From Candidatus Hatepunaea meridiana (GTDB taxonomy: Bacteria; Electryoneota; AABM5-125-24; Hatepunaeales; Hatepunaeaceae): DNA of 64,000 bases. Below are positions 1 to 59,800 of the stretch, piece by piece. Under the pieces are notes generated by a model. It ran no database searches. It worked only from the letters and a program-made list of their open reading frames with translations, and was not told the origin of the DNA. The stretch's first letter is position 1; every line of letters begins with the position of its first letter. Both the position numbers and the translations under genes were made by a program. The stretch is taken from NCBI GenBank assembly GCA_030765125.1, contig JAVCDD010000180.1, positions 7,033 through 71,032 of the forward strand, read 5' to 3'.

Positions 1-3000
1 ATACGGCGCGGGTCGGGATCTTCATCCAGTATTATATCCCCGATATCCTCAATGATTTCAGGTGGATCGTTGACCGGATTGATCACCAACCGGAAGTCCA
101 GATCGGTTGAAGCACCCGGTTCGTCGGTGGCTCGAATGGTAATTTCTACGCCGTCCGGGATATTGTAATTCGGTTCAGGTTCGAAATGCAGTACATTGAA
201 CTGGTCGACCTCCATATTCAACTCTTCTGGAGCGTCGATGACCGAAAAGTTCATTTCGTCTTCTTCTATATCGTAGAACACTTCGTCGAGGTCAGCCACG
301 TCAACCCGGTCAGGGTCTTCGTCAATCCTTATATTTTCAATCTGTTCGACAATCCGCGGTGCATCGTTGATGGCGTTAACGACGACTTCGAAGACGTCTT
401 CCGCCGTTTCTTCACCATCTGAAGCGGTGATCGTAACATCGACGTTCCCGTTCCAATCCGCTTCAGGCTGGACATAGAGCCTGCCCTGTACAATGCGAAT
501 ACTAAGCCCTTCAGCGTCGGACTCCTGGAACTCAAGATCGTCATCATCATCCGGGTCAACGAAGTGATCGTTCAGATCGGCAATTAGCCTTTCACCGTCG
601 TCCTCGTCAAATTCCTGATCGGGGATTTCCTCTACTAATATGGGTGGTTGATTTACGTGACCGACGGTAATATCAACCGTTGCGCGGGTCCTGCGACCTC
701 CCTGGTCACTTACTTCGAAGATCGGGCTGTATTCACCTTCATCATCAAGATCGGTCTGCCAGTTGAATGTGCCCGTGTTATCACCATTATCAGTGAATTC
801 CGCGCCGCGGTCTTCAGTTCCGTCGTCAACCAGCATTAACAGTTCCAGTTCGTCACCTTCAAACTCGATGTCAAAATCGTCAGCGGTCAGAGTGAATTCG
901 ATTTCATCGCCCTCATCAACATTTACCTCATCCAGCGGGTCAACCCAGAAGGGAGGGTCATTGACAGGGGTTATGGTAACCAGGAATACATCGTCAATGC
1001 TGTCATCACGGCGCGGGGAAGAAGAATTTTGGATTTTGGATTTTGAATGTTGAATGTCAGTAGCGTAAGCATTCCCGCTTGCGGAAACCATACACGCTGT
1101 TCGTAGCGCCGACGTCTTAACGGCATTACCGGAATTATAAGATGGTCTGAATACCATTAAGGCTCTACCGCCTTGATCATCGTCTGCTGTTACGGTTACT
1201 TCGAGATCATCACCGTTGAAATTCTCCGGAGCTTCCAACAGCAGCATATTATCATCGTCAATCTCTGCCGTAAGAGGTTCATCCGCTTCAACAGAGAATG
1301 ACAGATCATCGTCATCCGGGTCCTCGAATACCTCATCCAATACTGCGACTTCAAACTGACCGAAGTCCTCGGGTACACGCATATCCGCAATCGGGCTGAC
1401 TACCCGAGGTGGCTGGTTGATGTTGTTAACGGTGATATTAACCGTCAGATCATCGGTTCCATCATCTGTGTCGGTTACGCGGAAGACAGGGGTATAAGGA
1501 TCATCACGACTATCATCAGCGCCAGGCGTCCAGGTAAATTCTGCCGTGCCGTCGTCGTTATCAGCAAATTCCCATCCGTCAGGCAATTCACCTTCGTCGA
1601 ATACCGACCAGACCAGATCGTTGACATCATCTTCAACATCACTTGCCTGGAAGACGATATGGAGTTCTTCCTCTTCAGTAACATCAACGTCAATCTCATC
1701 GCCTAAAGCCTCGCCCTGATCGTCTTCGATAACAGGATCATCGTTAATCGAAAGGACGTTGATCGTGAATTCATCGGTAATTGATTCGTCTCTTCGAGGA
1801 GGAGAAGAATGTAGGATGAATTTTGAATGTTGAATGTTGAATGTTGAATGTTGATTATTGATTCGGGCGGCGATCATAATTCGCTGTCCCCAACTGTCCT
1901 CGGCTTCGATAATCACCTCTGATTCACCGAAGTAGTTCGGATCTGGTTCTACGGACAGGATGTGTGTTTCAATATCAATATTAGCGTTCAATTCTTGAAT
2001 CTCATTAGCTTCGATGATGTCAAACTCTAAATCATCACCATCCGGATCATCGAAAACATCGTCCAGGTCGGCGATTTCGATTACACCGGCGTCCTCGTCA
2101 ATATCTATATCGTCAATCGGATTTACAACTTCCGGAGGACGGTTGAAGTTGCCGACGGCGATGGTGATCTCCAGATCGACATCTTCCTCACCATCGGATA
2201 CCGTGAAGATTGGCGTATATTCACCTTCGTCTTCGAACGTTGTCTGCCAGGTAAAGCTTGCCGTACCGTGCTCGTTATCATTGAGTTCCGCTTCATCCGG
2301 CAGACCACCGCGGTCGCTGAATTCGATGGTCAGATCGTTGTTGTTGTCCACGTCATCCTGGGCAATAAGTTCGAAACGGGCAACGTTTCCTTCGTTTACC
2401 TCGTAACGATTGTCTTCAGGATAGCTCTCCCAGACCGGTGGATCGTTGAGCGGATTAACGGTAACAGTGAATTCATCGGATACGGTCTCGTCGCGGCGGG
2501 GTGGAGGGTTGAAATAGGGGGACAGTATACCTATTTCTGTTAATGGACCATCGTTCTTTTCAAGAGCACTCATGAAATAGGTATACTGTCCCCCTATTTC
2601 TGCGAGGCTTCGAGATGGCTGCACATTAACCATCAAACGCCCACCGTTCTCCTCATCATCTGCTGTCACGGTTACGATTAGATTCTCACCGTAAAAATCA
2701 TCCTCCGGTCTCAACGTCAGGATATTCTCATCGCTGATTTCCAGATTCAGTTCTTCAGTACCTTCCACCGAGAAAGTAAGATCGACGCCGTTCGGATCTA
2801 CGAAAATTTCATCCAGGTCGGCTACCTCCAACAGACCGGAATCTTCGTCGATTTCGACATCGTCAATCGGATTTACAACTTCGGGAGGATCGTTGATGGC
2901 TATGCCGGCGATATCAACCGTCAATTCAGCGTTGTCAGGATCGTTGGAGCTAATTGTTATTACGTCGCGGAACACACCGGCGTCTTCGGGAGCGAAGGTT

Positions 3001-6000
3001 ACAGTCAATTCATAGTTGTCTTCGGATTCAATAGTAAGTTCTTCGGCAAAGTCAAAACTGAAGTCCTCACCATCGGAAGTTATTTCGAATATTGTCAGGT
3101 CTCCATTGCCTTCGTTGCTTATGGTCAATATCAGTTCTTCGCTCTCGTGAATTGAAACGTTGCCAAAGTCCAGAACATTGGGGGATATGACAATTGCAGG
3201 ATGCGGGACAAAGTCTGTTACGTCAATGATTACCAAACCATTCTCACCGTCGGCGACGTATGCCATATCTCCCACGATCTGAACCCGTTTGGATAAGCCG
3301 TCTGTGTTATGGGCAGCAATCTCGCTCATATCTTCGGGGTCGGACACGTCGATAATTCCCAAGCCTTCCTCCCCGTCACAAACAAAGGCACTATTGCCTC
3401 GTACATCGATGCCCGTCGCTTCACCTTCGGTATCAAACGAGCCGACTTCAGCCGGATTTTCAGGATCGGATACATCGACCACAATAAGTCCATCATTCCA
3501 TTGTGCTACATAGGCGTAATCCCCGACGATAACGACATCCCAGGCTTGACCCGGAGTATCAAAGGATCCAATCTCATCCGGGTCCTCAGGATTGGAAACA
3601 TCGATAATACGAAGACCGCCTCCAGCAGCAGCTAAATATGCATAGTTCCCGTTAACGTCGACGCCTCGTGAATTACCCGGTGTTTCGACTGTGCTGATTT
3701 CATCAGGGTTCTCAGGGTCGGAAATGTCAATTATACTAAGTGCACTACTCCCTTGGCTCTCATCTGCTACATAGGCATAATCGCCCTCAACGCAGACATC
3801 CCAGGCATACATTTGCCACCTTTCGAGTGCGCCAACCTCTTCAGGGTTCTCAGGATCGGAAATATCGATTATGCGAAGCCCACTTCCGAAGTCCGCTACA
3901 TAAGCATAGTTTCCGATTACGAAGACCGCGCGAGATGTCCCTGGAGTATTGTAGAATCCGATTTCATCTGGGTTCTCCGGATCGGTTACGTCGATCATGC
4001 GAAGACCGCTGTTTCCATCTGCAACATATGCAAAGTCGTTTACAACAAAAATCCCCTGGGCATCTCCCGGTGTGTCGTAGGAGCCTACCTCGTCAATCTG
4101 CGGCTCCCGTCCTGTGCCGGTCAGGTCAACGGTCAGTTCATCGTTATTGGGATCGTCAGATGAAATGGTCATTGTGGCGGTGAAATCACCGGTTTCTTCA
4201 GGTATAAAGGAAACGATTAACTCGAAACTGCCTTCCGGTTCGATAACTAACTCGTCCTCGAAGTTGCTGCTGAAATAATTTTCATCAATTGAAATATCGG
4301 ATACGGTCAGGTCGGCGTTGCCTTCGTTGCCAATAGTGAGAATCAGATCACTCCGCTGGTGGACTGCCACTCCGCCGAAGTCCAGTGATGCCGGTGTTAC
4401 AGTAATACCTGCTTCCGGTTCTTGATGGAAGTAAAAAGCGCCCATATCCGCCTGTGTTTCATCAGGATCGTCCGGCGCGTCCGGATCACCGGAGTCGATG
4501 CAGGGGCTGTTGCGGGTCAGGGAATAATCATCATTGTCTATGTCCGCGAACAATGGATCGGAATCAATGTTCCCCGCTCCGGCGTATCCACCTTGAATAT
4601 CGGAGTAGGCGATGGTTAAACCAGCAGGAGTAGCTCCCGGTTGGTTACCCCAGAAGATCGAGTTCACGATTTGAGCGGAGGAGTTATCATAAGTATGAAT
4701 TCCACCATTGCCGGTCTCGCCGATGTTGCCGGTTATAGTTACGTTTATCAAAGTGGGATCGCTGTCGTGTGTGCTGTAGATAGCTCCACCCCAACGACGG
4801 GCGTTATTGCCCTGTATCAACAGATGATCCAGCGTCGGGGCAGCGTCATTGATGTATATTCCTCCGCCGTAGTTGGAATTTCCATTGCGGATAGTGAAGC
4901 CCATCAAGACCGCATCTACTCCAATTCCATCGCGCAAAGTAACCACACTGCCACCGGCGTTGCCGTCTATGATGGTCGATTCTATATAAGCCTGATCGCC
5001 GGTAGTCAATAACAGGCTGGCAACGACTATCTCCTTACCAATGAAGTTGATGCGTTCAGAATAGGTTCCGGAATGAACAAGCACGGTGTCACCGTTCTCG
5101 ACGGCGTTGATAGCCGCCTGGATGGTTCCATAGTCATCCGGGACGTTGAACAGATGCCTGCCGGGGATACCAATTCCGGTCAGTTCGATGGTGGTTACCC
5201 TTTCGTCAGGATCGTCCGAAATGAGGGTCATAAAGGCTTCAAAATCACCGATGTCGTCAGGTGTGAAGGTAACAGGCAGAGACGCCTGCCCTTCCGGTTG
5301 GATGACAATGGCGTTCTCGAAAGTCGGTACGAATGTCTCCGATCCGCGGATGGTAACTTCCGAGACGGTAAGATCGGCGGCGCCCTCGTTGCGGATAGTC
5401 AGGATCAGTTCTTCGCTGTCATCTATACTGACCTCGCCGAATTCCAGGATTTCCGGCTCAACGGCAATATCCGGAGCCACACCTGAACCGGTCAAGGTGA
5501 TTGTTATTTCATCCTCTTCAGGGTCGTTGGATGCTATGGTTATTATTCCCTCAAAATCGGCGACAGCATCCGGTGAGAAGGTGACGATCAGGTCGGTGTT
5601 GTCGTCGGGTTCAATATTGATTGCATCTTCAAAATCACTGTTGAAGTTGTCACCTTCAATTGTCACTTCGGATACGGTAAGAGGACCTTCGCCTTCGTTG
5701 CCGATGGTTAAATTCATCCGGGCATTATCATCGATTACAACTTCACCGAAGTCAAGATTGTACGTTGAAACTGTAATTGCCGGGTGCGGCATAAAGTCGG
5801 TCACGTTCAGGATGCGCAGTCCGCTGGCTCCATCAGCAACATAAGCGTGAGTTCCGATCACTGAAACATCGTAAGCCTCGTCAGGCGTGTTATAAGATGC
5901 GGTTTCACCAATATTTCCCAAGTCGGAAATGTCTATTACCTGCAGTCCACTCTCCATATCCGCAACGTAGGCGAATCTTCCCAAAACCGTTACGGCAACG

Positions 6001-9000
6001 GCGCGATCTGGCGTGTCAAGTTCACCGAGTTCTTCAATATTTTCGGGGTCGGATATATCGAGGATATGTAAACCACTCTCGTTGTCTGTAACGTAGGCGA
6101 TAGATTCGATGATGAATATTTCCGTTGCAATGTCGGGAGTATCGTAGCGTCCCGTTTCTTCGATATTCTCAGGATCGGAAATGTTCAATACTAACAATCC
6201 ATTAGCGCCGTCTGCTACGTAAGCATATTCACCAATGACTGTTACAGCGTGCGCCAATCCCTCTGTATTAAAGGATCCAACCTCGCTCGGATGCGCCCTG
6301 TTTGATATATTGACCACCCTCAGACCGCTCTCCATATCTGCTATATAAGCGATTGTGCCGACAACAGCGACATCAACGGCATTTCCGGGAGTGTCGAATT
6401 CACCTGTTGGATTGGGGTCTCCGGGATCAAAGACGTCTATGACTTGTAAGCCGTTTTCATCGGCGGCTACGAAAGCGTAGTCTTCCGACACAACAACGCT
6501 CATTGCGGTTCCGATATCACCGGCTGATGCGACCTCGTCAGGGTTCTCAGGGTCGGTTATGTCTATTACTCTTAAGCCTCCGTCACCATCTGCAACGAAA
6601 GCGAAATCTTCTATGACGGTAACTCCGTAAGCTGTTCCATCGGTGTCATAGTTTCCTACTTCGTCGATGTCCGGTTCGCGTCCGGCGCCGGATAACTGAA
6701 CAATTATTTCACCGTTTTCGGGATCGTTTGAGGTGATGGTTAATGTGCCTTCGAAATCACCTGCTTCTTGGGGGGCGAAGGTGACAGACAGGAATGTCTG
6801 TCCTACCGGGTCGATGACAATGGGGTCTTCGAAGCTGCTACTGAACCAGACTCCTTCAACGGTTACATCGGATACGGTTAAAGGACCGTCGCCTTCGTTG
6901 CTGATGGTGAGTCTTTGATCAATACTGCGTTCTATCTGTATAGCGCCGAAGTCCAGTTGTTCCGGTTCAACGACTATTATTGGAACTACGCCTGTGCCGG
7001 TTAATGCTATGGCTATTACCTCTTCATCCGGATCATCAGAGGATATGGTCAGTGTTGCTTCAAAATCACCTGATTCCTGTGGAGCGAAAGTAACGGTCAG
7101 ATCGAATTCCTCATCCGGTTGGATGACGAACGCTTCGTCGAAGTCGCTGCTGAAGTAATTCCCTTCAATTGCGATGTCAGAGACGTTCAATTCAACCAAA
7201 CCATCATTGCTTAATGTAAGCGTCAGATCAGCGCTCTCGCCTCCTGACACCTGACCGAAGTTCAATTCATTCGGATTAACCATTAGATTCGGTTCTTGCG
7301 CCTGGTGGTAGTAGAGTGCGCCCATATCGGCGCGGGTTTCGTCCGGGTCTTGATCGGCGTTGGGATCACCGGTGTCGACGCAGGGGCTGTTGCGCAAGAT
7401 TTGGTAGTCGCTGTTGTCTGCATCGGCAAATAAGGGATCTTCCTCGATGTTGCCTGCACCGGCATAGCTGCCTTCAATATCTGAGAAGGTGATCGTCATA
7501 CCGTTCTGCAGATCAGGCGGTTCGTTGCCCCATATAATAGAATTAATCACCTGAGCACTCGCTCCACCGCCGCCGATGCCAATAGCAGCGTTGTCGCTGT
7601 TTGCAGTGTTACCGGAGATGGTTACGTTGACGAGAATGGGAATGGAACCGCTGGTGGCGTATAGCCCACCGCCGCGTCCACTGGCGACGTTGTCGACTAT
7701 AGCGAGGTGATCGAGCGTGGGCGTGGTCTGATCGCCGTTGCAATAGATACCACCGCCCCAATCGGTGTCGGCATTTCTAACGGTAAAGCCGGTCAGGATT
7801 GCCGCTTCCGTTTCACCGTTGCGGAAGACGACCGTACTCCTGCCGTTTGCGCCGCCGTCAATTATGGTCGATTCGATGTATTCAGCCTCACCTGTGGTCA
7901 GGTACAGACTGCCGACGGTTACGTCTATGCCGTTGAAGTTGACGTTCTCTTCGTAGGTGCCGGGTTGAACCAGCACGATGTCACCGGCTATGGATACGTC
8001 GATTGCTTCCTGGATGGTTTCATAGTCATCCGGCACGTTGACGGTGCGCGCTTCGGTCTCTATACCGGTGCCACTCAAATCAACGGTTACTTCTCCTTCA
8101 TCGGGATCGTCGCTGGTTATGGTCAATACAGCTTGCAGATCGCCTGTTTCACCGGGCAAGAAGGTTACATTAACTTCAGAACTTTCGTCCGGTTGGATGA
8201 CAATGGGGTTTAAAAAGTCGCTGCTGTAGTAGGCGCCTGCAATCGTTATATCGGAGACGGTCAGTTCGATATTGCCTTCGTTAGAGATAGTTATGGCTAA
8301 CTGGGACGACCTGCCCATTTCAGTTTCAGGGAAGGCGAGGGCTTCGGGATCAACGGCGATGTCAGGTGTAAGTCCCGATCCGGTTAAGGGGATGTTTATC
8401 TCACCCTCATCGGGATCATTGGACGTTATGGTCAGCGTTCCTTCGAAATCACCGGTTTCATTCGGCTGGAAGTTTACGTTGAACTGCCGGTTGCCGTCCG
8501 GTGCAATTACGAATTCCTCCTCAAAGTCCGAGGAGAAATATTGACCTTCGATGGAAATATCCGAAACAGTAAGATCGGAATTTCCATCATTGGTGATTAT
8601 CAATGGCAGAGTGGATATTTGTCCCACCAGGCAGTCGCCAAATGGGAAGGAATTGCGGTTAACGGTAATATCCGGCGCCACGCCTGAACCGCTTAGCGCA
8701 ACCTCAACCTCCGGATCGTCCGGATCATCGGAAAGTATAGTCAGGGTTGCATCAAAATCGTTCACCTCTTCCGGCGCGAACGTAACGGTCAGCTCAAAGT
8801 CCTCAAACGGTTGGATGACGATTTCTTCATCAAAATCGGTCAGGAATGTCTGCGCTCCCCGGATTGAAATATCCGAAATGGTCAATTCCCAGTTGCCATC
8901 GTTGCTGATGGTTAACGTCAGGTCTTCAGTTTCACCGGTTACAACCTCACCGAAGTCGAACGCTTCGTCTGAAAGGGTGATTTCGGGGTATTGGACGAAG

Positions 9001-12000
9001 TCGGAGACGTCGAGGATTAATAAACCGTTATTCCCATCAGCCACATATGCATAGTTTCCTACAACAGAAACATCCCAAGAATGTTGAGTTCGGTGATTAC
9101 CAACCTCATCAGGATTCTCAGGATCTGAAACATCTATTAAACGTAGACTGCTTTGACCGGCGGGAGTAAAGCATGCAACATAAGCTATGTTACCTACAAC
9201 AGTTAAGTCTCGAGCATAATCACGTGTATCTTGAGATCCAACTTCGACCAATTCATCTGGGTTAGAAATATCAATAATTCTTAGACCTTCTGTATAATCT
9301 GCTACATAAGCATAGTTTTCTATGACTGAAACACCCAGAGCTGCACCTGGAGTATCATATATTCCTAATCCTCCAAGGTTACGAGCATTAATCAATATTA
9401 AACCTGTCTGATTATCTGCAACATAAGCGATCTCATCAACTATCACAACATCCCGTGCGATTTGCGGCGTGTTAAATGAACCGGTTAATCTTGGATCTTC
9501 AGGGTCGGATATGTTAATAGCTTGCAAACCGCTACGTCCATCAGCTATGTAAACATAATCTCCGCTGACCGCAATACCTTCTGCCCAATCAGGAGTATCA
9601 CAGCTTCCTATTTCATCAGGTTCCTCAGGATTAGACACATCAATAATACGGAGACCGCTCTCGTAATCCGCTACAAATGCCAAATTATCCGAAACCACCA
9701 CATCATAGGCATTTCCTGGAGTTTCACAGAAACCTATCTCATCTGGATTCTCTGGATCAGAGATATCTATTATCCGTAGACCCCCTGCATTATCTGCTAA
9801 ATAGGCAATATCCCCGACAATATCTATACCAAATGTTACACCATTAGTATTATAATGCCCCACTTCCGGTATCGCCGGTTCCCTGCCGACTCCCACCAAT
9901 GCAACATCCACTTCCCCATTATCCGGGTCGTCGGAAGTTATGGTCAGTGTCCCCTCGAAGTTGTTCTCGCTGTCCGGTGTGAACCGAACGGGTAGTTCGA
10001 AGGTGGCGTCCGGTTCGACGATCATCTCTTCATCGATATCCTCAAAGATACTGCTGAAGTTGTCGTGTCCGATTGATATATCGGATATGGTCAGGTCGCC
10101 GTCACCGTCGTTGCCGATGGTCAGGATGAGCTCGACGGTCTGGTCGATTACGACCTCGCCGAAGTTCAGCGATTCGGGATCATGCGTGAGGATAGGCGCA
10201 ACGCCCAGTCCGCTTAAGTTCACATCCAATTCTCCATTATCCGGATCATCGGATGTTATGGTCAGCGTTGCCTGCAGGTCTCCGGTCGCGTCAGGTGCAA
10301 AGGTTACGGTCAGTTCATAGGGCTCGTCCGGTTCGATGACGACCTCACCGTCGAAGTCGCTGGTGAAGTAGTCACCCGCGATTGATATGTCGGAAACGGT
10401 CAGAGGCGCGCGTCCCTCGTTGTTATCAATAGTGAGAATCATATCTGTCTCGTGACCGACTACCGTGTTGGGGAAGACAAGCTCTGCCGGTGTTACAGCG
10501 ATAACGGGAGCCGCTTCCTGGAAGAAGTAGAGGGCGCCCATATCGGCGCGCGTGGTGTCGGGGTCTTCGGGAGCGTCGGGATCGGCTGCGTCAACGCAGG
10601 GGCTGTCCTCAGTGATGTAGAAGTCGTTGTTGTCTGTGTCAGCGAAAATGGGATCGGAATCAAGGTTGTCTACTCCAGCGTAACCGCCCTCGATGTCGCA
10701 GTATGCAACGGTCAATCCGTTCGGCATTCCGGCGGGTTGGTTGCCCCAGACGATTGAGTTTCCGATAGTGGCTGAGGCGCCTGCAAAGATATTAATAGCG
10801 CCGACCTCTTCGTTTGCCGTGTTGCCGTAAAGGGTTATAAAGTTCAGATCAGGATTGGCGTTGTTGGTGGCGTAGATACCTCCACCGCGGCTGGTGGAGC
10901 TGTTTCCGTAGATTACCAGATGATCCAGCGTCGGGCTCGCGTCGTTGATATAGAGCCCACCGCCGAAGTCGGTTGAGCCGTTGCGAATGGTGAAGCCTAT
11001 CAGTTCCGCTTCGTCTGTCTCACCGTTGCGGAAGGCGACTACACTACGCCCGTTGTCGCCGCCGTCGATTATGGTTGAGGCTATGTCATCCGGATCGTCG
11101 CTCTCGATATATTGGCTGGCAACCGTGATGTTTTTGCCGCGGAAATTGATGTTCTCATTATAAACACCGGGGTCGACCAGAACGCGGTCGATGTCAATGG
11201 CTTCGTCAATGGCTGCCTGGATGGTCTCGAAGTCATCAGGGACGTTGTATTCGCGGGGCTGTGCTTCGATGCCGGTTCCTGACAGGGCAACAGCAAGCTC
11301 ACCGTTGTCGGGATCGTCTGAGGTGATGGTCATAGTGGCTTCGTGGTCACCGGTCTCGGTGGGGGAGAAAACGACAGACAGGAATGTCTGTCCTACCGGT
11401 TCTATGATTATTTCGTCTGTAAAGTCGCTGCTGAAATAATCCCCTTCAAAGGTTACGTCTGTAATGTACAGGTCTGTATCGCCGGTGTTGCTGATGGTTA
11501 TGACAGACAAGGATGTCCGTCCCACCTCAGTATCAGGGAATCCAATGGCTTCGGGGTCTATGGTGATTTCGGGGTATTCTACGATGCCGCCGGTAACTTC
11601 GGAACAGTTGAAGATGTAAAGCCCTTCATCCTCATCGGTGATATAGGCGTAATTGCCGGATACATACAAGCCGATAGCGTAGCCTGGAGTGTCGTGGAAA
11701 CCAATCTCTTCCGGTTCGGCAGGGTTTGAAACGTCTATCAAGCGCAATCCCTCGTCACCATCGGCAACATAAGCGAAATCATGCGCGACAAAGACGCTTT
11801 CGGATGAGCCGGGAGTGTTTACAAAGCCGACCTCTTCCGGTTCTGCGGGGTTTGATACGTTTATAATGCGAAGTCCACTGCCTGAAGCGGCGACATAAGC
11901 ATAGTCACCGGCTGCGAAAACTCCATAGGCACGACTCGGCATTTCGAGATTGCTCACTTCATCCGGATTTTCCGGGTCGGACACGTCGATTATGCGCAGT

Positions 12001-15000
12001 CCACCGGCTTGATCTGCAAGATAAGCGTAGTCACCTGAAACGTAAACTGAAAAAGCTTGACCGGGTGTGTCGAACGCTCCAATCTCATCGGGATCATCGG
12101 GGTTGGAGACATCAATTATACGCAGACCGCTGGCGCCGTCTGCAACGTAGGCAAGATTGTCTTTGTAATAAACAGCATACGCGGCACCCGGGGTGTCGAA
12201 GGTTCCGACCTCATTGGGATTTTCGGGGTCTGAGATGTCGATTATGCGCAGTCCGCTGGCAGCGTCCGCAACGTAAGCATACGAACCAGCAACGTCTATG
12301 CCGGTTGCTTCACCGGGGGTGTCGTAGGAACCGACAGCCTGCGGTTGACCGGGGTCGGATACGTCGACAATCTGCATACCTTCCCAGTAGTCAGCTATGT
12401 AAGCCAGCCCTCGCGAGACGTAGACGCCTTCGGACATTCCGGGCGTTTCGTAATGACCTACCTGCCGGATCTGCGGACCGGTTCCGATGCCGGTTAAATC
12501 AACTTCAATCTCCTCGTTTTGAGGGTCGTTGGAGGTGATGGTCAGTGTGCCAGCGTAATCGATTGTTTCTACAGGTGTAAATGTTACGGTCTGTTCGATG
12601 CTGTTGTCGGGTTCTATGGTGATTTCGTCCTCAAATACGGTTTGGAATACTTCGTCACCCTGAATGGTAATATCAGTGATGATAAGATCCTCATTTCCTA
12701 CATTGGTGATGGTGAGGATAAGATCGCGGTCAATGTCAATGGCAGACTCGCCGAAGTCGAGCGCACCCGGTGAGATCCTGATAGTCGGAGGCTGGGGTTG
12801 CTGTTGGTAGTAGAATGCGCCCATATCGGCACGTGTTTCATCGCTATCCTGGGGCGAGTTCGGATCACCGACGTCTATACAGGGGGAGTCTTCGGTCAGT
12901 TGGAAATCATCATTGTCAAAGTCGGCAAATAAGGGATCCTGATCGATGTTGCCGGCGCCGTTATAACCACCCTGAACGTCAGAATAGGTAATGGTTTGTC
13001 CACCAGGAAGCGCTGCCGGGGTGTTTCCCCAGAATATCGAGTTGACTGCCTGTGTTTGAGCGCCACCCCCTCCAACACCTATTCCGCCGTTACCGCCATC
13101 GGCGTCGTTGTTGGTGAATGTTATGTTATTCAGGAGCGGTTGCGCACCAGTGGTGACATAGATGCCTGCACCTCGTCCGCTGACGTGATTGCCTGTTATC
13201 AATAGATGATGCAATGTAGGATTAGCGCCACGGATGTAAGAGCCGCCGCCGAAGTCGGTATCTGCATTGCGGATTGTGAAGCCTGCGAGGACAGCTTCGT
13301 TTGTCTCACCGTTGCGGAAGACCGTTACGCTTCTGCCGTTGGCGTCACCGTCGATAATGGTCGAAGCGATGTAATCAGGATCACCGGTTGTGATATAGAG
13401 GCTGCCAACGACGATATTCTTACCAATAAAGTCAATGATCTCAGTATAGGTTTCAGGTTGAACCAGTACTGTGTCACCGTCAGCAGCGTTGTCGATTGCT
13501 TCCTGGATGGTGTCGTAGTCGTCCGGAACGTTGATTATAAAATCTCGTCCCGATCCGGAAAGAGCTACTGCGAGATCCTCGTTCTCAGGATCGTCAGATG
13601 CTATGGTAAGTGTTCCAACGAAATCATCAATGTCATCCGGTGAGAAGGTTACGGTTAATTCGCGACTTTCATTCGGTTGGATGACGATCTCATTCTCGAA
13701 ATCGCTGATGAAGTTGTCCCCTTCAATAGTTATATCGGATATAGTCAGATCACCGAAACCGGTGTTGCTGATAGTGAGTATCAGGTCTGCTTCGTCGTCA
13801 ATCGGAACAGCACCGAAGTCCAGGGCATCCGGAGATACGTCAATAGCGGGGATCGCTTCGACACCGATTCCGGTCAGGTTCACATCCAGGTTCTCGTTAT
13901 CCGGATCGTTAGATGTGATTACAAGCGTGCCGGCGAGATCACCGGTATCATCCGGCTGGAAGGTGACAGTTACATCAGAAGTGTTGCCCGGTTCGATGAC
14001 CACTTCATTCTCGAAATCTGAACTGAATATGTCTCCTTCAATAGTAATATCCGAGACATTCAGGTTTTCACGTCCTCTATTTCGGATGGTTAGAATCAGA
14101 TCGGCGCTCTGGTCGACTACTACCTCAGCAAAGTCAAGCGCTTCAGGAGAAACAACGATGCTCGGTCCCTCTGCCTGGAATAACGGGAATGTTCCCATAT
14201 CGGCGCGTGTGCCGTCCGGGTCTTCGGGTGCATCAGGATTGCCTGTATCTTTACAGGGGCTGTCATCGGTCAGGTGAAAATCATCATTGTCGGGATCAAC
14301 GAACAATGGATCTGTATCTATGTTGCCTCTGCCGTTATAACCGCCCTGGATATCAGAGAATGTGATCGTCTGGTTGGCGGGAATATCTGGTGGGGCATTA
14401 TCCCAGAATATGGAGTTTACAATAGTAACCACTGATCCACCGAAAACATCCAGAACACCGTTGTTTTGCTCAGAATCATTGCGGGTCAGGGTAACGTTTG
14501 TCATCGTAGGACTACCGCCGCCATAGGCAATTATCGCACCGCCCCATCTTACGGTATGGTTATCGGTGATCAATAAATGATCCAGTATCGGGCTGCCGCC
14601 ATTACAGAGTATTCCCCCTCCGAAATCAGCGGCGCCGTTGCGAATTGTAAAACCGGACAGGATGGAATTCACTGTCTCACCGTTGGCAAAGGTTACAACG
14701 CTAGTGTTATTAGCATCGCCATCGATTATGGTTGATTCAACGTAATCCGCATCACCTGTAGTAATAAACAGGCTGCCTACAATGATTTCCTTGCCGTTAA
14801 AGTTGATGTTTTCTGTGTATGTCCCGGGCGCTACCAAAACAGTATCCGTGTCGATGGCATTATCAATAGCTTCCTGTATAGTATCGAAATCATCAGGCAC
14901 ATCGTGTACATGATCGAGCGGTTCGATGCCAGTTCCAGTTAAAGCGACGTCAACTTCTTCTTCATTCGGGTCATCGGATGTAATAGTGAGCGTTCCCTGG

Positions 15001-18000
15001 TAATCTTCTATATCATCAGGTGCAAACGTTACCGTAACATCATAACTGTTGTCCGGTTCGATTACGATTTCATCTTCTTCGAAGTCGTGCGTGAAAACAT
15101 CACCTTCAATAGTGATGTCAGTTACGGTCAGATCGGTACGACCATTATTCCTGATTGTGAGCGACAGTTCAGCGCTCAATTCAAGCTCAACCTCTCCAAA
15201 GATAAGTTGAGCCGGTATTACCGATATGTTTGGCTCTTCCGGCAGCTCGAAGTAGAAGGCGCCCATATCATTGCGTGTTTCGTCAGGATCCTGTGGTGAA
15301 TTCGGATCACCTGCATTTATACAAGGGGAGTCTTCAGTTAATTGGAAATCATCATTATCAAAGTCGGCAAATAAGGGATCGGAATCAAGATTCCCTGCTC
15401 CGGCGTATCCACCCTGAACATCGGAATATGTAATAGTCTGACCGCCAGGAAGCGCTGCAGGTGTGTTTCCCCAGAATATCGAGTTGATTACCTGGGTTTG
15501 AGCGCCGCCCCCACCGACTCCGATTCCACCGTTGGCACCGTCGGCATCGTTGTTGGTGAATGTTATGTTATTCAGGAGCGGTTGTGCTCCGGTAGTGGCA
15601 TAAATCCCTGCGCCGCGTCCGCTGACATGGTTGGCGGTTATTAATAGGTGGTGCAATGTTGGACTGGCGTCACGGATGTATGAGCCGCCTCCGAAGTCGG
15701 TATCTGCATTGCGAATTGTGAAACCGGCAAGGACGGCTTCGTTTGTCTCGCCGTTGCGGAAGACCGTTACGCTTCTGCCGTTGGCGTCACCATCAATAAT
15801 GGTCGAAGCGATATAGTCGGGATCACCTGTGGTGATATACAAACTGCCGACAACGATGTTCTTGCCAATAAAGTCAATGATTTCAGTATAGGTCTCAGGT
15901 TGAACCAGCACCGTGTCGCCGTCAACAGCGTTGTCGATTGCTTCCTGAATGGTATCGTAGTCATCCGGAACATTGATTATGTAATCCCGTCCCGATCCTG
16001 AAAGAGCAACAGCGAGATCCTCGTTCTCCGGATCGTTAGATGCTATGGTTAACGTTCCATTAAAATCACCAACGTCATCCGGTGAGAAGGTCACATTTAA
16101 TTCATAGCTGTCATCCGGTTCGATTACAACCTCATTCTCGAAATCGCTGATGAAATTGTCACCTTCAATGGTTACATCGGATATAGTCAGATCACCGAAG
16201 CCGGTGTTGCTGATGGTTAGTATCAAGCCTGCCTCGTCGTCAACCGGAATTGCTCCAAAGTCCAGCGCATCCGGCAATACTACTATTGCAGGAATCGCTT
16301 CGACACCGATTCCGGTCAGGTTCACCTCCAGATCTTCATTGTCCGGATCGTTGGATGTGATTACAAGCGTACCAGCGAAATCTCCGGTAGCATTCGGCTG
16401 GAAGGTAACGATTACTTCAGAAGTGTTGCCTGGCTCGATGACTACTGCATTCTCAAAATTGCTGCGGAAGTTATCCCCCTCAATTGTTATATCGGATACC
16501 CTTAAGTCTTCACGTCCTCTATTTCGGATGGTGAGCGTCAGATCAGCGCCCTGGTCGACTACTACCTCAGCAAAGTCGAGAGCTTCAGGGGAAACAACGA
16601 TACTTGGTCCTTCAACCTGGAACAGCGGGAATGTTCCCATATCAGCGCGTGTGCCGTCCGGGTCTTCGGGTGCATCAGGATTGCCTGTGTCTTTACAGGG
16701 ACTGTCATCGGTCAGGTGAAAATCATCATTGTCGGGGTCAACGAACAATGGGTCTGTATCTATATTGCCTCTGCCGTTATAACCGCCCTGAATGTCGGAG
16801 AAGGTGATTGTTTGGTTAGCCGGTATATCAGGTGGGTCGTTATCCCAGAATATGGAGTTTACAATAGTAACCACTGATCCACCGAAAACATCCAGAGTGC
16901 CGCTATTTTGCTCGGAATCATTACCGGTCAGGGTAACGTTTCTCATCGTAGGACTACCGCCGCCATACGCAATTATCGCACCGCCCCATCTGACGGAATG
17001 GTTGTCGGTGATCAATAAATGATCCAGCATCGGGCTACCGCCATTACAGAGTATTCCCGCTCCGAAGTTAGCACCGCCATTGCGGATAGTAAAACCTGAC
17101 AGGACGGAATTCACTGTCTCACCGTTGGCAAAAGTTACTACGCTCGTGATATTCCCATCACCGTCAATAATTGTTGATTCGACGAAATCTGCATTACCTG
17201 TTGTAATAAATTGACTGCCGACGACGATTTCCTTGCCGCCAAAGTTGATGTTTTCAGTATAAGTTCCGGGCGCTACCAACACAGTATCCGTATCGATGGC
17301 GTTATCGATGGCTTCCTGAATGGTATCGTAGTCGTCGGGAACGTTGATCCTGAAACTTCTCCCGATTCCAGAAAGAGCGACAGCCAACTCTTCGTTCTCC
17401 GGATCATCTGATGCAATAGTAAGTGTCCCATTAAAATCACCTACGTCATCAGGAGAGAATGTAACCGTTAATTCATAACTGTCATCCGGTTCGATTACAA
17501 CCTCATTCTCAAAGTCGCTGCTGAAGTTATCGCCTTCAAAGGTAACGTCCGAAACGGTCAGGTCACCGAAACCCACGTTGGCGATAGTGAGTATCAGATC
17601 CGCATCGCCGTTAACCACTACCGCACCGAAGTCCAAAGCATCTGGAAATGGATCAATAGAAGGGATAGCTTCCACGCCGATTCCTGTCAGATTAACCTCC
17701 AATTCCTCGTTATCCGGATCATTGGATGTAATTACAAGCGTTCCGTTAAAATCACCTGTATCATCAGGCTGGAAAGTGACAGTTACTTCATAAGTGTTGC
17801 CCGGCTCGATGTCCACTTCATTATCAAAATCGCTTCTGAAGATGTTCCCCTCAATCGTTATATCAGATACATTTAAGTCTTCGCGTCCCCTGTTTCTGAT
17901 AGTGAGCGTTAGATCGGCACTCTGGTCGACTACAACCTCAGCAAAGTCAAGCGCTTCAGGAGAAACAACGATACTTGGTCCCTCTGCCTGGAATAGTGGG

Positions 18001-19862: not shown

Positions 19863-19910
19863 GATGGGTACCTTTTGTATGATTTCTCGATTGAATTGTG
19901 AAGGTTATGA

Positions 19911-19927: not shown

Positions 19928-20002
19928 AACAGCATTATAATTTAACTCTAAACCAGGTTCAAAGTCAAGTCTTTTCATAAGATGAAAATAGAAACTGAAA
20001 TC

Positions 20003-23830: not shown

Positions 23831-23857
23831 TATCTTTACTCCTAAGATGGGATTGAT

Positions 23858-23944
23858 AAATAGGGGGACAGTATACCTATTTCATAAATACTCTTTGAAA
23901 TAACGACGGTCAATAAAGAAATAGGTATACTGTCCCCCTATTTC
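23858..23944. repeat. Family A palindromic element, intergenic copy
   Basis: The arms aaatagggggacagtatacctatttc (23858-23883) and gaaataggtatactgtccccctatttc (23918-23944) sit in the 131-bp spacer between the Mrp-NifX stop and the OYE start. Confidence 0.8.
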
Positions 23945-25689: not shown

Positions 25690-25746
25690 TGTGATCGTCT
25701 CTTTTATGAACCACAGATTACGCGGATTTAACAGATTATTTTGTTT

Positions 25747-34227: not shown

Positions 34228-34242
34228 TATAACCGCCAAATC

Positions 34243-34377: not shown

Positions 34378-34383
34378 ATTTAT

Positions 34384-56599: not shown

Positions 56600-56610
56600 G
56601 GGATTTAAGG

Positions 56611-56884: not shown

Positions 56885-59800
56885 ATGTCCAAAAAAACCA
56901 TTCTTTTATTAGCATTTATAATCTTTTTAACATTAACCCTTTTCAATCAGGGGTATACAACCACCCGCCCAACGGGATTGTCAACCGGATCAAACGAATT
57001 CGCTCAAATCTTATCCCAATCCGGTACGGATCTACATATAAGATTCACACCACCGGCATCGCATAAACGGCTTCTTGATGAAATCACAGCATCGCAAAAT
57101 CAGAACATCACGAATCTTGCCTACACCTATTGGTTGGTCGTTCCGCCAATGGATCATGTTGAACTCGAAATAGTTGAGCAGAATGGACGGCGGTTGTCAA
57201 TCTCGGACAGGGATGCACCTGATCCGTACATAGATAGAGAAGATGTAAAAATTCAGACAGACAAGTATTATCCTCCAGCTCCTGTAATAATGGGCAAACC
57301 GCAGATTATGCGCGGTATCAGGATGGTTCCGATAACAGTTTTTCCAATACAGTTACTACAGGAATCATCACAGGCAGGGACGCCTGTGTCACCCGATGGT
57401 ATACAGAAATCACAGCATCACAACATCACAACATCACAACATCAAATTGCTGTTGAAAACAGTCAGATTGAAATAAAACTCAATTTCACTAATGACGAAG
57501 CAATAAATCCTTTATTGAATTCTGCCCCTCGACAGATGTCGCACAGCTTTGCCAATATAATCAATTCCTACACACTCAATCCCCCACCCCACTTGATCCC
57601 TCGACGGGATCTGGCAGCGACGGAACTCGCCAAATCGCTGATCCTGTACCCTCAAGTCTTTGATGATAACGAGGATGCCGCGGAAGCTATGATATGGCTC
57701 AATCATCTGGTTCATTGGAAGCGCCGACAGGGTTACTATGTTGAATTGGCAGCAGTTGAAGTCGACCGTGAAAACGAAGATAACAGCGATGATATAAAGG
57801 ACTTGATCGGTGACTACTATGAGGATGGTTTTGAGTTTGTAACCTTGATTGGCAACGAAGATTACGATGAGCTTAATACCGTTGAAGGAAACAATACCGA
57901 ACTCTATTTTCCATCCTGGATGTTTATCATCCGCGTTGTTCAGGATACTCTCGGGAATGACGTTATCATCCGGGGTTATCGCGAGCACGAGTATTCGCTG
58001 CTCGAAGGTGACGACGAGATGCCTGACATTATCATCAGCCGTATCAAAGTTCCCACTTACGACAGGCTTGTCGGTGCGCTCCGGAAAACTATCGCATATC
58101 AAATTGACCCGTATCTGGATAATGATAATGACTGGTATTCACATTCTCTGGTTACGATTGAAGAAGACTCGATTGGCATTATTGTCCTTTCCCCTGAATA
58201 TTTATCGCTGGCATATTGGGAACAAGCTCGGCTCACACAAAAAGGATATAATGATATTGATGTTATCCTCGGTCCTGTAGGATCATTTGAAGATGGCGTT
58301 TACGTTGGAGATGACATTAAAGAAGTACTTGAAGAAGGCGTTTCATTAGCATTAGGAGAGGGCTGGCTGTATGATTGTGTTGCACATCGTAACTGGGAAC
58401 AATGGGAAGATTACGCTGAAACCGGAAGGATGCACCCATTTGTCATCGCTAATCTATCCTATTACGAGCAACAGGTAATGTATCCGTTCTATGCTTCCGG
58501 AACTTCAGACAACCTGAATGGTCCTATCGCGGGATTGGGCATCTACGATACAGGAGGACGCTCAGTATATATGACTCATATAATCGGAAGCGCGCTTATG
58601 GCGATGACAATGAACGATGTTTATACACCCGGACATCTTCAGATTATTACAAAGATGTATCTGTCAGGTCTCATTGACAGTGTAAGAATCTACGAAGAGG
58701 ACCCGGAAGAAGCTTATATTAGCGGGATTATCACAGCCTTACGCCTCCATTGGACATTAGGAGATCCGACGGTTGACGTCTTTTCAGAATTTCCCGTTCA
58801 GATAACCGTTGATCATCCCGAATCATATCTAATTGGTGAAACATCAATAATACTAAATGTAATAGATGATAATGATAATAACGTTGCCGATGCTAACGTT
58901 TGCATTTATCAGGAAGATGGCATTCATTATGTAACCCAAACAAACGATGCAGGTATGGTAGTCTTCACCATCCCAGGAGATGGGCTCGAAGAAGGTGAAC
59001 TACTGATAACCGCCAGCAAACACAACTGCATACCATATCTTCCTCCCGATCCTGTACCTGTGAGAACGGGTAATATTAATCTTGTGCTTGAAGATGCTGG
59101 TTTCGACGATGAAGACAACGGCGACGATAATGATGATCACTTTCGGAACGGCGAAGAGGTCGTGCTGATTCTTACGCTGACTAACACCGGCGATCAGGAT
59201 GCGGAAGGCGTCTCTGCAACTCTTAGCTGCGACAGCGAATGGCTCAGTTTCTCACGGGAAGGAATTGAATTCGGGGATATAGATTCGGATGAAACGACTA
59301 CCTATCAAGGTGATCAGGTTATAATGACCCTTGATATGGACTGCCCTGATCGTTCTCTTCTACGAATCCAGGCAGACATTAATATTGATGAGGAAACAAT
59401 TACATCCGTTGCTTTTGAAATCACTACCTACGGACCGAAGCTCTTTACCGCACCACATCTGATTGATGTTGACGAGGGTTTTGTTGGGGGCGGAGAGAAT
59501 GCTTCTTTTTCACCGACTATTCAAAATCTGGGCAGGACAGGAATATCAACATTCACTGCTGAATTAGTAAGTCTCAACGAACTTATCACCGTTACTGAAG
59601 CTGAACGTAACTATGGTGCTATTGAGCCTTGGCTGGATCCTGAAGAGGATCCAGACGAACAATCGCCGAATGAACCGTTCATTATTGATTTTGACGAACT
59701 TTTCGTAGCTGGAAATGAAGCACGATTCGAACTGCGAATATCTGCTGAGGATGACTATGATACAACAATGATAATCTCCAAGTTCGTTCCCAGTCGTGAA

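What the first reader, a model, noticed from the sequence alone, without database searches (positions are those of the whole stretch)
1800..1880. Heptanucleotide microsatellite (TGAATGT)4 inside the giant ORF is a candidate slipped-strand frameshift switch
Four perfect and three degenerate 7-bp units sit in the second junction slot and translate as RINNQHSTFNIQHSKFILHSSPPRRDES. Because 7 is not a multiple of 3, gain or loss of one unit would shift the frame. That would truncate the protein upstream of the last cadherin-like modules and any C-terminal sorting signal.

The same unit recurs in the next slot (1044-1057). Non-triplet repeats within surface-protein genes are the classical signature of phase variation, which is established for many pathogens. 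Applying that here is inference.
Basis: partly seen in the sequence, partly recalled or inferred. Interest (0 to 1): 0.7.

Follow-up and report, generated by a model that had tools for sequence, protein, structure and literature searches.

The report
Heptamer microsatellite in adhesin loop
A short 7-base microsatellite does sit in frame inside a giant surface-protein gene of an uncultured Antarctic-lake bacterium, but it lies in a floppy, unconstrained loop, and nothing yet shows that it works as an on/off switch.

Summary
(TGAATGT)4 is perfect at 1824-1851, with degenerate units on both sides. It lies in frame in a minus-strand ORF of more than 6,600 codons (3..19862) from Candidatus Hatepunaea meridiana, which is known from a single MAG.

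- **Frame effect:** gain or loss of 1-2 units gives a stop within about 55 codons. A change of 3 units keeps the frame.
- **Location:** the tract fills a 30-residue insertion ("slot") between the last two strands of a Big_9/tandem-95 Ig-like module. AlphaFold2 models the slot as disordered. Homologues in other phyla have a hypervariable loop at the same place but no repeat in it.
- **Slot 1:** the neighbouring slot holds an in-frame copy of an intergenic palindromic repeat, so the slots tolerate non-coding-type DNA.
- **No population test:** no second genome of this species exists in any collection I could search.
- **Tract length:** 4.6 copies is short. The identical unit in E. coli prlF is stable at 2 copies and hypervariable at 8-17 in Shigella.

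**Verdict:** this is most likely a young microsatellite in a permissive loop. It is a real frameshift hot spot, but not a demonstrated phase-variation switch.

The parts
1824..1851 (-). Perfect heptamer tract: (TGAATGT)4 on the + strand, which is (ACATTCA)4 on the coding strand. The periodic run extends to 1823-1854, 4.6 copies.
1804..1866 (-). Whole heptamer array including the degenerate flanking units (GAAGAAT, GTAGGAT, GAATTTT on one side; GATTATT, GATTCGG on the other).
   Evidence: family D3
1797..1886 (-). Slot 2: a 30-residue insertion, QRIMIAARINNQHSTFNIQHSKFILHSSPP, in the loop between the last two strands of Ig-like module A2. GC is 0.38, there are 6 G in 90 nt of coding strand, and no Asp or Glu.
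   Evidence: Alignment A1. AlphaFold2 pLDDT is 33-48 over residues 84-114 with no secondary structure. Composition.
1785..1802 (-). Codons for PPRRDE, the conserved C-terminal boundary of the slot. The last strand of the domain starts here.
   Evidence: The three slots encode the same residues with different codons.
1014..1166 (-). Slot 3, the paralogous 51-residue insertion. Its array at 1024-1057 is degenerate: GAATTTT, GGATTTT x2, GAATGTT x2.
2499..2639 (-). Slot 1, a 47-residue insertion. Bases 2511-2600 are an in-frame 90-nt copy of a dispersed palindromic element with perfect 27-nt arms.
23857..23944 (.). Intergenic copy of the same palindromic element, 88 nt long, lying between two minus-strand genes. 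It has stops in all six frames.
3..19862 (-). Giant ORF G1: 6,620 codons within the window from the ATG at 19862, with a signal peptide. The C-terminus runs off the window. Architecture: repeated blocks of beta-helix-like repeats, choice-of-anchor D/ASH Ig domains and a repeat I read as LVIVD-type (named from reading the translation, not tested with a family model), then alternating tandem-95/Big_9 and He_PIG-like modules from about 2890 downwards.
57416..57444 (+). The second long perfect non-triplet repeat of the window: (CATCACAA)3.6, in frame in the propeptide region of a Peptidase_C25/T9SS gene (56885-62230). A change of 1 unit gives a stop at codon 187 or 199.

Best explanation
The heptamer tract is a young microsatellite. 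It arose and expanded by replication slippage inside a structurally unconstrained, disordered surface loop (the 'slot' between the last two beta-strands of a Big_9/tandem-95 Ig-like module) of a giant, probably T9SS-secreted adhesin-like protein of Ca. Hatepunaea meridiana.

**What it does.**
- The tract is translated as filler peptide (HSTFNIQ...).
- Only the slot's C-terminal boundary (PPRRDE) is under protein-level constraint.
- Because the loop tolerates almost any stop-free, in-frame sequence, it accumulates DNA typical of non-coding regions: microsatellites in slots 2 and 3, and a palindromic intergenic repeat in slot 1.
- The tract is a local indel hot spot, and slippage by 1-2 units would truncate the protein. 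That is a by-product, not an evolved high-frequency switch.

**Shown:** the repeat, the frame, the insertion, the predicted disorder, the element copy, and the absence of the repeat in relatives.

**Inferred:** slippage origin, near-neutrality, and a low switching rate.
For: **1. The slot is an insertion.** It is present in 3 of 5 paralogous modules and absent from the other 2.

**2. The slot is modelled as disordered.** AlphaFold2 gives the two flanking domains pLDDT of about 90. Slot residues 84-114 have pLDDT 33-48 and no secondary structure.

**3. Relatives have the loop but not the repeat.**
- Homologues from Electryoneaceae, Calditrichaeota and other bacteria carry a loop of about 25-60 residues at the same place. 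It ends in P-x-R-D-[DE] and is otherwise unalignable.
- Their slot DNA has normal GC, and on reading it I saw no microsatellite or palindrome.

**4. The slot peptide looks foreign to its host.** It has 0% Asp+Glu against 28% in the surrounding modules, and GC 0.38 against 0.49.

**5. Constraint sits only at the boundary.** Between slots 2 and 3, the PRRD codons differ only synonymously (CCT/CCG, CGA/CGC, AGA/CGT, GAC/GAT). Every difference in the repeat-derived codons changes the amino acid.

**6. Slot 1 shows the slots accept non-coding-type repeats.**
- It carries a 90-nt copy of an intergenic palindromic element.
- That copy is open in only 1 of 6 frames, the one used. The intergenic copy is closed in all six.

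**7. The slot 3 array has decayed.** It sits at the homologous position and holds only 2+2 identical units. By my codon-by-codon reading, slot 2 is longer by 3 heptamer units, but the automatic alignment places that gap elsewhere, so the 3-unit figure is uncertain.

**8. Tract length is in the untested zone.**
- The identical unit (ATTCAAC) in E. coli prlF is essentially fixed at 2 copies. At least 4,592 of 4,605 genomes match at 95% identity or better, and all full-length sampled rows span exactly 134 nt.
- The tract is polymorphic only at 8-17 copies, in Shigella sonnei and E. coli isolates.

**9. No other role is suggested.**
- The mRNA over the tract is unstructured (z = -0.8).
- There is no Rfam hit.
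- Promoter-like and terminator-like sites are at chance level.
Against: - The two longest perfect non-triplet repeats in the 64 kb both lie inside ORFs of secreted or surface proteins (G1 and the C25 peptidase). They are purer (96% matches) than the intergenic arrays (72-92%). Purity can indicate recent activity or selection for mutability.
- Reaching 4 in-frame units by single-unit steps implies that out-of-frame (null) alleles existed and were tolerated. That is what a contingency gene looks like.
- A paralogue in the same MAG (MDP8238837.1) is annotated as an ORF that ends inside a slot. This hints that frame disruptions may occur in slots.
- 'Neutral' is inferred from a lack of constraint, not measured.
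Confidence: 0.55

Rival explanations
1. Contingency locus. Slipped-strand mispairing changes the unit number at a useful rate and toggles the gene between a full-length form and a truncated form. The truncated protein lacks the last modules and the T9SS C-terminal domain, so it is not displayed.
For: - The unit is not a multiple of 3, and a change of 1-2 units gives a stop within 21-55 codons.
- All neighbouring large ORFs and several homologues carry Por_Secre_tail, so truncation should block T9SS export.
- A second in-frame non-triplet repeat, (CATCACAA)3.6, lies 10% into the adjacent C25 peptidase gene. An imperfect 8-nt array lies upstream of that gene.
- There is precedent for an in-ORF heptamer in a giant adhesin gene: (AATTTTG)14 in H. 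influenzae hmw1A (PMC2651432).
- The same unit slips in E. coli prlF. The prlF1 7-bp duplication recurs in experimental evolution (PMC12107188).
Against: - There are only 4.6 perfect copies. The H. influenzae heptamer tracts mostly have 8-38, and the same unit at 2 copies is invariant in at least 99.7% of E. coli genomes.
- Degenerate units flank the tract, and the paralogous array has decayed.
- The repeat is absent from all relatives.
- The organism is a free-living proteolytic sulfate reducer of an anoxic lake layer (PMC9324843), not a host-adapted pathogen. Repeats with longer units are reported mostly from non-pathogens and mostly in intergenic regions (PMC4692102).
- No polymorphism data exist.
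Confidence: 0.2
2. In-frame length or antigenic variation. The tract changes mainly in steps of 3 units (21 nt, 7 residues of HSTFNIQ). This lengthens or shortens an exposed loop without switching the protein off.
For: - By my codon-by-codon reading, slot 2 is longer than paralogous slot 3 by 21 nt, which would be 3 units; the automatic alignment places that gap elsewhere, so this is tentative.
- Slots in homologues range from about 25 to 60 residues.
- Shigella prlF alleles differ by whole HSTFNIQ units (8, 11, 14, 17 heptamers).
Against: - Any two open alleles must differ by a multiple of 3 units, so the paralogue comparison is survivorship, not evidence of a mechanism.
- A 3-unit slip needs a longer tract than this one.
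- No population data exist.
Confidence: 0.1
3. The array is a remnant of a non-coding repeat family or mobile element captured in frame, as in slot 1, rather than a repeat born in place.
For: - Slot 1 holds such a captured element.
- Intergenic regions of the window are full of hairpin repeats and imperfect 7-8-nt arrays.
- Tandem ATTCAAC arrays occur sporadically in many unrelated bacteria, seen as small spurious ORFs (91 hits).
Against: - No GAATGTT array exists outside slots 2 and 3 in the 64 kb.
- There are no terminal repeats or target duplications.
- The slot 2 and slot 3 arrays align in register next to the PRRD codons. This fits descent from one ancestral slot followed by local slippage.
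Confidence: 0.08
4. Assembly or sequencing artefact: a wrong unit number, or a chimeric join of repeated modules.
For: - The source is a short-read MAG contig.
- The gene consists of repeated modules.
- A homologue contig (L006/L007) shows a frameshift elsewhere in the gene.
Against: - The frame is continuous through three different slots. I estimate the chance of that for unselected sequence at about 4e-5.
- A 32-nt tract is shorter than a read.
- Flanking modules are only about 60-75% identical, so they are easy to assemble.
Confidence: 0.03

Closest known systems
(ATTCAAC)n tract inside prlF (antitoxin of PrlF-YhaV) of E. coli and Shigella sonnei
   Same: - The heptamer unit is identical. 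The window's coding strand reads ...CAAC(ATTCAAC)3ATTCAA...
- It is translated as the same HSTFNIQ peptide, inside an ORF.
- Slippage is documented: the prlF1 allele is a 7-bp duplication (2 to 3 units) that frameshifts the C-terminus (PMC12107188).
- Natural alleles with 8, 11, 14 and 17 units, and frameshifted forms, exist.
   Different: - The gene and organism are unrelated, so sharing the unit is almost certainly coincidence.
- The prlF tract is hypervariable only when long. The 2-unit allele is kept in at least 99.7% of 4,605 complete E. coli genomes.
- The window's 4.6 copies fall between these two regimes.
Heptanucleotide contingency repeats of Haemophilus influenzae (hmw1A/hmw2A promoters; (AATTTTG)14 inside the hmw1A ORF; (AACAACC)n at a TonB-dependent receptor)
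   Same: A non-triplet heptamer associated with a giant adhesin gene. The in-ORF case frameshifts the protein (PMC2651432).
   Different: - Those tracts mostly have 8-38 units (the AACAACC tract ranges from 1 to 13) and vary between strains. This one has 4.6, and no second strain exists.
- Those occur in a host-adapted pathogen. This organism is a free-living anoxic-lake bacterium.
Tandem repeats with 5-11-nt units in environmental bacteria (Calothrix and Nostoc heptamers, Xanthomonas/Nostoc GGGAATC, Beggiatoaceae TAACTGA)
   Same: - Heptamer direct repeats of 2-6 copies in non-pathogens.
- When found in ORFs, they sit at structurally peripheral, tolerant positions (PMC4679880 section 15; PMC4692102).
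   Different: - Those families are one dominant unit repeated hundreds of times per genome, mostly in intergenic regions.
- Here the unit is seen only in two paralogous slots, and other arrays in the window use other units.
Rickettsia palindromic elements (RPE): selfish palindromic repeats inserted in frame in protein-coding genes. This comparison applies to slot 1.
   Same: - A dispersed palindromic repeat of about 90 nt with intergenic copies has one copy in frame in a coding gene.
- The reading frame is preserved, and the copy lies in an exposed loop.
- That RPEs behave this way is from my own knowledge (Ogata et al. 2000). It is also mentioned in the MITE review PMC10969869, which I listed but did not read.
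   Different: - The phylum differs, and sequence relatedness to RPEs was not tested.
- Only one coding copy is seen in 64 kb.
- The comparison concerns slot 1, not the heptamer itself.

Membership tests
SSR-mediated phase-variable (contingency) locus | A tract of identical units whose length is not a multiple of 3, placed in an ORF or promoter so that a unit change alters expression. | tested here: met
   Perfect period-7 run at 1823-1854 inside the ORF. A change of 1-2 units gives stops; a change of 3 units keeps the frame open.
SSR-mediated phase-variable (contingency) locus | A tract long enough to be hypermutable. | tested here: inconclusive
   - The tract has 4.6 perfect copies.
- H. influenzae heptamer tracts discussed as phase-variable mostly have 8-38.
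- The same unit is stable at 2 copies and polymorphic at 8-17.
- There are no data for 4-5 copies.
SSR-mediated phase-variable (contingency) locus | Unit-number polymorphism within populations or between strains, including out-of-frame alleles. | not testable with these tools
   - Only one MAG of the species exists (PMC9324843).
- The next-best relative of a housekeeping protein is 59% identical.
- Genome and metagenome scans found no conspecific.
SSR-mediated phase-variable (contingency) locus | Reversible on/off phenotype of a surface or host-interaction determinant. | not testable with these tools
   - The gene product is adhesin-like (signal peptide, Ig-like modules).
- Its own C-terminus is outside the window.
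- No phenotype data exist.
Tandem-95 repeat / Big_9 bacterial Ig-like ('cadherin-like') modules | A match to the family models above their curated cut-offs. | tested here: met
   - NF012211 tand_rpt_95: 115.6 bits against a cut-off of 90.
- Pfam Big_9: 136.9 bits against 23.6.
- Pfam Cadherin_4: 70.6 bits against 25.1.
- Pfam Cadherin_5: 65.6 bits against 26.5.
- Pfam He_PIG: 39.9 bits against 24 (all Pfam).
- AlphaFold2 gives two beta-sandwich domains.
T9SS cargo protein | A C-terminal Por_Secre_tail sorting domain. | not testable with these tools
   - The C-terminus of the giant ORF lies beyond base 1 of the window.
- Five other large ORFs in the window have the domain, as do homologues P0003-P0005, P0007 and P0009.
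RPE-like in-frame palindromic element (slot 1 only) | A dispersed palindromic repeat with non-coding copies, plus a copy inserted in a gene without breaking the frame. | tested here: met
   - Full copies lie at 2511-2600 (in frame, 90 nt) and 23857-23944 (intergenic, 88 nt, 89% identity).
- Degenerate copies lie near 19997-20085 and 34222-34385.
- The coding copy is open in only 1 of 6 frames.
RPE-like in-frame palindromic element (slot 1 only) | Sequence homology to the Rickettsia RPE families. | not tested
   No RPE sequences were available for comparison. The resemblance is one of behaviour, not a claim of homology.

The most novel reading that the evidence does not exclude
Two adjacent T9SS cargo genes of a free-living Electryoneota bacterium are stochastically switched by 7- and 8-nt repeats placed in disordered loops: the giant adhesin and a gingipain-family C25 peptidase. 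This would be SSR-type phase variation of T9SS surface proteins in an environmental candidate phylum. In that case the slots would be evolved 'landing pads' where a frameshift tract can sit without harming the fold.
Probability: 0.15. Interest if true: 0.55.

Novelty: new member of a known kind. Interest (0 to 1): 0.3.

Why it matters
**If the tract really switched the gene.** SSR-based phase variation would extend from host-adapted pathogens to a free-living FCB-group bacterium and to T9SS cargo. It would also show that a 3'-proximal frameshift can act as a null by removing the sorting domain.

**As it stands.**
- The finding shows how disordered loops of giant repeat proteins grow by taking up microsatellites and palindromic intergenic repeats.
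- It warns that a non-triplet repeat in a surface-protein gene is not by itself evidence of phase variation.

Tried and rejected
**Looking for conspecific sequences to count units.**
- A protein search with residues from 900-2900 gave a best hit of 50% identity.
- Degenerate-pattern scans of genome contigs and metagenome contigs returned only 31%-identical hits.
- A housekeeping protein found only the source MAG at 100%, and the next hit at 59%.
- Exact look-ups of P0054 and P0001 found no DNA on record.
- The population test was therefore impossible.

**Repeats in the slots of relatives.** Slot DNA of five homologues (L004, L005, L006, L008, L009) has normal GC, and on reading it I saw no microsatellite or palindrome. 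I did not run the repeat tools on these loci.

**An RNA or regulatory role.**
- No Rfam family matched anywhere in the window.
- Promoter-like and terminator-like sites at 900-2800 are at chance level. The scan assumes sigma-70 consensus, which may not fit this phylum.
- The tract mRNA is unstructured.

**Programmed ribosomal frameshifting.** I saw no canonical slippery heptamer or downstream structure, so I did not pursue it.

**Correcting an early impression.** At first it looked as if 7-8-nt repeats were much denser in intergenic DNA. That holds only for imperfect arrays found by Tandem Repeats Finder. With a perfect-copy criterion, the two long arrays are both coding, so I do not use density as an argument.

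**A link between the radical SAM/SPASM gene upstream of the giant ORF and the slot peptides.** The gene's best match, though well below that model's cut-off (176 vs 380 bits), is a metalloenzyme-cofactor maturase model rather than a peptide maturase, so I dropped the idea.
Full report
**Observation**

The + strand at 1801-1866 reads ggagaagaatgtaggatgaatttTGAATGTTGAATGTTGAATGTTGAATGTtgattattgattcgg.
- Tandem Repeats Finder reports 1817-1854, period 7, 5.4 copies, 96% matches.
- A perfect-period scan gives 1823-1854, 4.6 copies. Only one other perfect non-triplet repeat of comparable length exists in the whole 64 kb.
- The 13-mer GAATGTTGAATGT, with up to 2 mismatches, matches 8 times against 2.9 expected. 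None of 100 shuffles reaches 8.
- Bases 1801-1860 have GC 0.30 and no C on the + strand.
- The tract lies in a minus-strand open frame running 3..19904, with an ATG at 19862 followed by a signal-peptide-like MRPKFPLIITFILAIITGVSTVYA. The quoted translation is exact.

**Frame arithmetic**

I rebuilt the gene with 1-7 units.
- 2 or 5 units: the reading frame ends after ...FKIHPTFFSSSKRRINYR*.
- 3 or 6 units: a stop about 45-55 codons downstream.
- 1, 4 or 7 units: open.

On the antisense strand the unit carries TGA in every frame. On the coding strand it is stop-free in all three frames. Any heptamer array inside an ORF must have that second property.

**Where the tract sits**

From about 2890 downwards the protein alternates two kinds of Ig-like module.
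- Family matches are Big_9, Cadherin_4/5 and He_PIG, and NCBIfam tandem-95 repeat at 115.6 bits against a cut-off of 90.
- I aligned the five 'A' modules. Three of them carry an insertion between the conserved ...TxxAxD..G and the last strand ...D.F.V.V.P.NDPP. Two have none.
- An AlphaFold2 model of module A2 + slot 2 + module B2 (244 aa, 15-sequence alignment) has mean pLDDT 82.4. Both beta-sandwich domains score about 90.
- Residues 84-114 (GQRIMIAARINNQHSTFNIQHSKFILHSSPP) score 33-48 and have no secondary structure. The last strand resumes at residue 119.

The heptamer therefore encodes part of a loop that is predicted to be disordered.

**The slot is a family feature; the repeat is not**

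- The best homologues are 30-50% identical. They come from Ca. Hatepunaea, Electryoneaceae, Calditrichaeota and unnamed metagenome bacteria.
- All have a loop of about 25-60 residues at the same place. It ends in P-[RQSGD]-R-D-[DE] and is otherwise unalignable.
- I fetched the DNA of five of them. Their slots have the same GC as the rest of the gene (0.43-0.65 against 0.41-0.59). On reading the slot DNA I saw no microsatellite and no palindrome.
- In the window, the slot peptides look foreign to their host. Slot 2 has no Asp or Glu, against 28% in the surrounding modules, and GC 0.38 against 0.49.

**What is constrained**

- The three slots end in S/P-P-R-R-D-E/D, encoded by different codons: cctcctcgaagagacgaa, tccccgcgccgtgatgac, ccaccccgccgcgacgag. 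That boundary is held at the protein level.
- In the repeat-derived part, every difference between slots 2 and 3 changes the amino acid (F/S, I/K, L/I, H/Q).
- The two arrays align in register next to the PRRD codons. By my codon-by-codon reading slot 2 is longer by 21 nt, which would be 3 units; the automatic alignment places that gap elsewhere, so the figure is tentative.
- The seed therefore predates the module duplication. Both arrays have slipped since then. Slot 3 has decayed to GAATTTT, GGATTTT x2 and GAATGTT x2.
- All three slots stay open and in phase. For unselected sequence I estimate that probability at about 1e-3 for stop-freeness, times 1/27 for frame continuity. The gene is, or was very recently, under selection to be read through.

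**Slot 1 supports the 'permissive site' reading**

- Bases 2511-2600 are a 90-nt element with perfect 27-nt arms (GAAATAGGGGGACAGTATACCTATTTC) and a 36-nt loop.
- As mRNA it folds at -50.6 kcal/mol, z = -7.3.
- A second full copy (88 nt, 89% identity, opposite orientation) lies between two genes at 23857-23944.
- Degenerate copies lie upstream of the giant ORF (about 19997-20085) and downstream of another ORF (about 34222-34385).
- The coding copy is open in only one of six frames, the one used. The intergenic copy has stops in all six.

This is the behaviour known from Rickettsia palindromic elements (my own knowledge). It shows that the slots accept sequence of a non-coding type, provided the frame survives.

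**Is it a switch?**

The decisive test is unit-number variation, and it could not be run.
- The window comes from Ca. Hatepunaea meridiana. The oxidoreductase at 21926-23830 is 100% identical to MDP8239317.1 on a 74,618-bp contig.
- The species is known from one MAG from the anoxic zone of Ace Lake (PMC9324843).
- The next relative of that protein is 59% identical.
- No conspecific DNA or protein turned up.

Indirect evidence points both ways.

*For a switch:*
- The other large ORFs of the window end in a T9SS sorting domain, and so do homologues of this region. A truncation here would probably block export.
- The second long perfect non-triplet repeat of the window, (CATCACAA)3.6 at 57416-57444, also lies in frame. 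It falls in a 22-residue insertion in the propeptide region of a C25 peptidase gene. A change of 1 unit stops translation at codon 187 or 199.
- The coding arrays are purer than the intergenic ones.
- A paralogue in the same MAG is annotated as ending inside a slot.

*Against a switch:*
- The tract is short.
- It has degenerate flanks.
- It is absent from relatives.
- It sits exactly where constraint is lowest.

**An unexpected calibration**

I searched the peptide (HSTFNIQ)n and found 91 small proteins.
- Among them are PrlF antitoxin alleles from Shigella sonnei and E. coli with 2-5 HSTFNIQ units, as well as frameshifted forms.
- The DNA of one allele has 17 perfect ATTCAAC units. This is the same heptamer as the window's coding strand.
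- E. coli K-12 has 2 units. The classical prlF1 allele is a 7-bp duplication, and it recurs in experimental evolution (PMC12107188).
- Of 4,605 complete E. coli genomes with the locus, at least 4,592 match the 2-unit allele at 95% identity or better. All 39 full-length rows sampled across the ranking (the 40th was a partial match) span exactly 134 nt. Only 13 genomes fall into lower identity bands.

For this very unit, 2 copies are stable and 8-17 are hypervariable. The window's 4.6 copies lie in the untested interval. H. influenzae heptamer tracts discussed as phase-variable mostly have 8-38 units, including (AATTTTG)14 inside the hmw1A ORF (PMC2651432).

**Verdict**

- The most likely reading (about 0.55) is a young slippage-born microsatellite that is tolerated and translated in a disordered, permissive loop. 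It is a genuine frameshift hot spot, but not a demonstrated switch.
- Phase variation remains possible (about 0.2), and read mapping could test it directly.
- In-frame loop-length variation (0.1), capture of a non-coding repeat (0.08) and artefact (0.03) are minor alternatives.
- The kind of feature is known, both as non-triplet repeats in ORFs and as repeats with longer units in environmental bacteria (PMC4692102, PMC4679880). This is a new member in a candidate phylum.
- Interest is modest. The in-frame palindromic element and the recurrent PRRD linker motif next to C25 peptidase genes are arguably more interesting than the heptamer itself.

Noticed in passing
window 2511-2600 (in frame in the giant ORF) and 23857-23944 (intergenic); degenerate copies about 19997-20085 and 34222-34385: A dispersed palindromic element of about 90 nt, with perfect 27-nt arms and a hairpin of -50.6 kcal/mol. 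One copy is inserted in frame in slot 1 of the giant ORF, encoding EIGGQYTYFMSALEKNDGPLTEIGILSPYF. That copy is open in only 1 of 6 frames, while the intergenic copy is closed in all six. This resembles the in-frame palindromic elements of Rickettsia, in a different phylum.
   Followed up: partly
window 57416-57444 (+), inside the Peptidase_C25/T9SS gene 56885-62230: A perfect (CATCACAA)3.6 octamer in frame, about 10% into the gene. It lies in a 22-residue insertion relative to the neighbouring paralogue. A change of 1 unit gives a stop at codon 187 or 199. This is the second candidate frameshift hot spot in a secreted-protein gene.
   Followed up: partly
window 56568-56600, 62482-62544, 62249-62280, 50553-50591, 63787-63810, 21849-21917: Imperfect tandem arrays of 7-8-nt (and 16- or 31-nt) units in intergenic regions. 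One, (GTGGTGTC)4.1, lies between the two C25 peptidase genes, about 290 nt upstream of the second one's start.
   Followed up: no
PRRD codons at window 2501, 1799, 1016 (giant ORF); 48477, 45531, 41130 (second giant ORF, 35644-50103, minus); 57599 (C25 peptidase 2); VRRD near 51730 (C25 peptidase 1): - A linker motif, ..N-A-x-R-[ST]-L-R-S-x(3-15)-G/S-P-R-R-D-[DE], recurs in different T9SS cargo proteins. PRRD[DE] occurs 6 times against 0.02 expected.
- In both C25 (gingipain-family) peptidases, RRD lies at the propeptide/catalytic-domain junction.
- PRR|D may therefore be a processing site for these Arg-directed peptidases, by analogy with gingipain polyprotein processing. This is my inference and is untested.
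   Followed up: partly
window 25736-25815, 63802-63891, 50665-50762, 21849-21917; also 34616-34715, 62279-62466, 35567-35633: Several families of intergenic hairpin repeats, for example GTTTAGAGTCCAAGCTTCAGCTTG...CAAGCTGAAGCTTGAACTCTGAAC and TCCCATTTTGTCATTCCCGCGAAGGCGGG with its complement. The non-coding DNA of this genome is unusually rich in palindromic repeats.
   Followed up: no
protein P0001 (MDP8238837.1, same MAG, 34-kb contig): A paralogue of the giant protein is annotated as a 470-aa ORF. It starts in the middle of a module and ends inside a slot (...EADDGQDQARMVMNFTNSCQPAGVDS*). This could be a frame disruption located in a slot. The DNA was not retrievable.
   Followed up: partly
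L006 and L007, about 2020-2045 (homologue P0002, ENA and JGI assemblies): The homologous giant gene is split by a frameshift. It is called as two genes that overlap by 4 nt, within a module rather than a slot. The same break appears in two assemblies.
   Followed up: no
L010 663-781 and L011 263-381 (Shigella/E. coli prlF): - prlF carries 17 perfect ATTCAAC units in these isolates.
- Protein databases hold alleles with 8, 11, 14 and 17 units, and frameshifted forms.
- At least 99.7% of complete E. coli genomes keep 2 units.
- This looks like a hypervariable in-ORF heptamer in an antitoxin gene. I found no paper describing it in the library, although I made only one search.
   Followed up: partly
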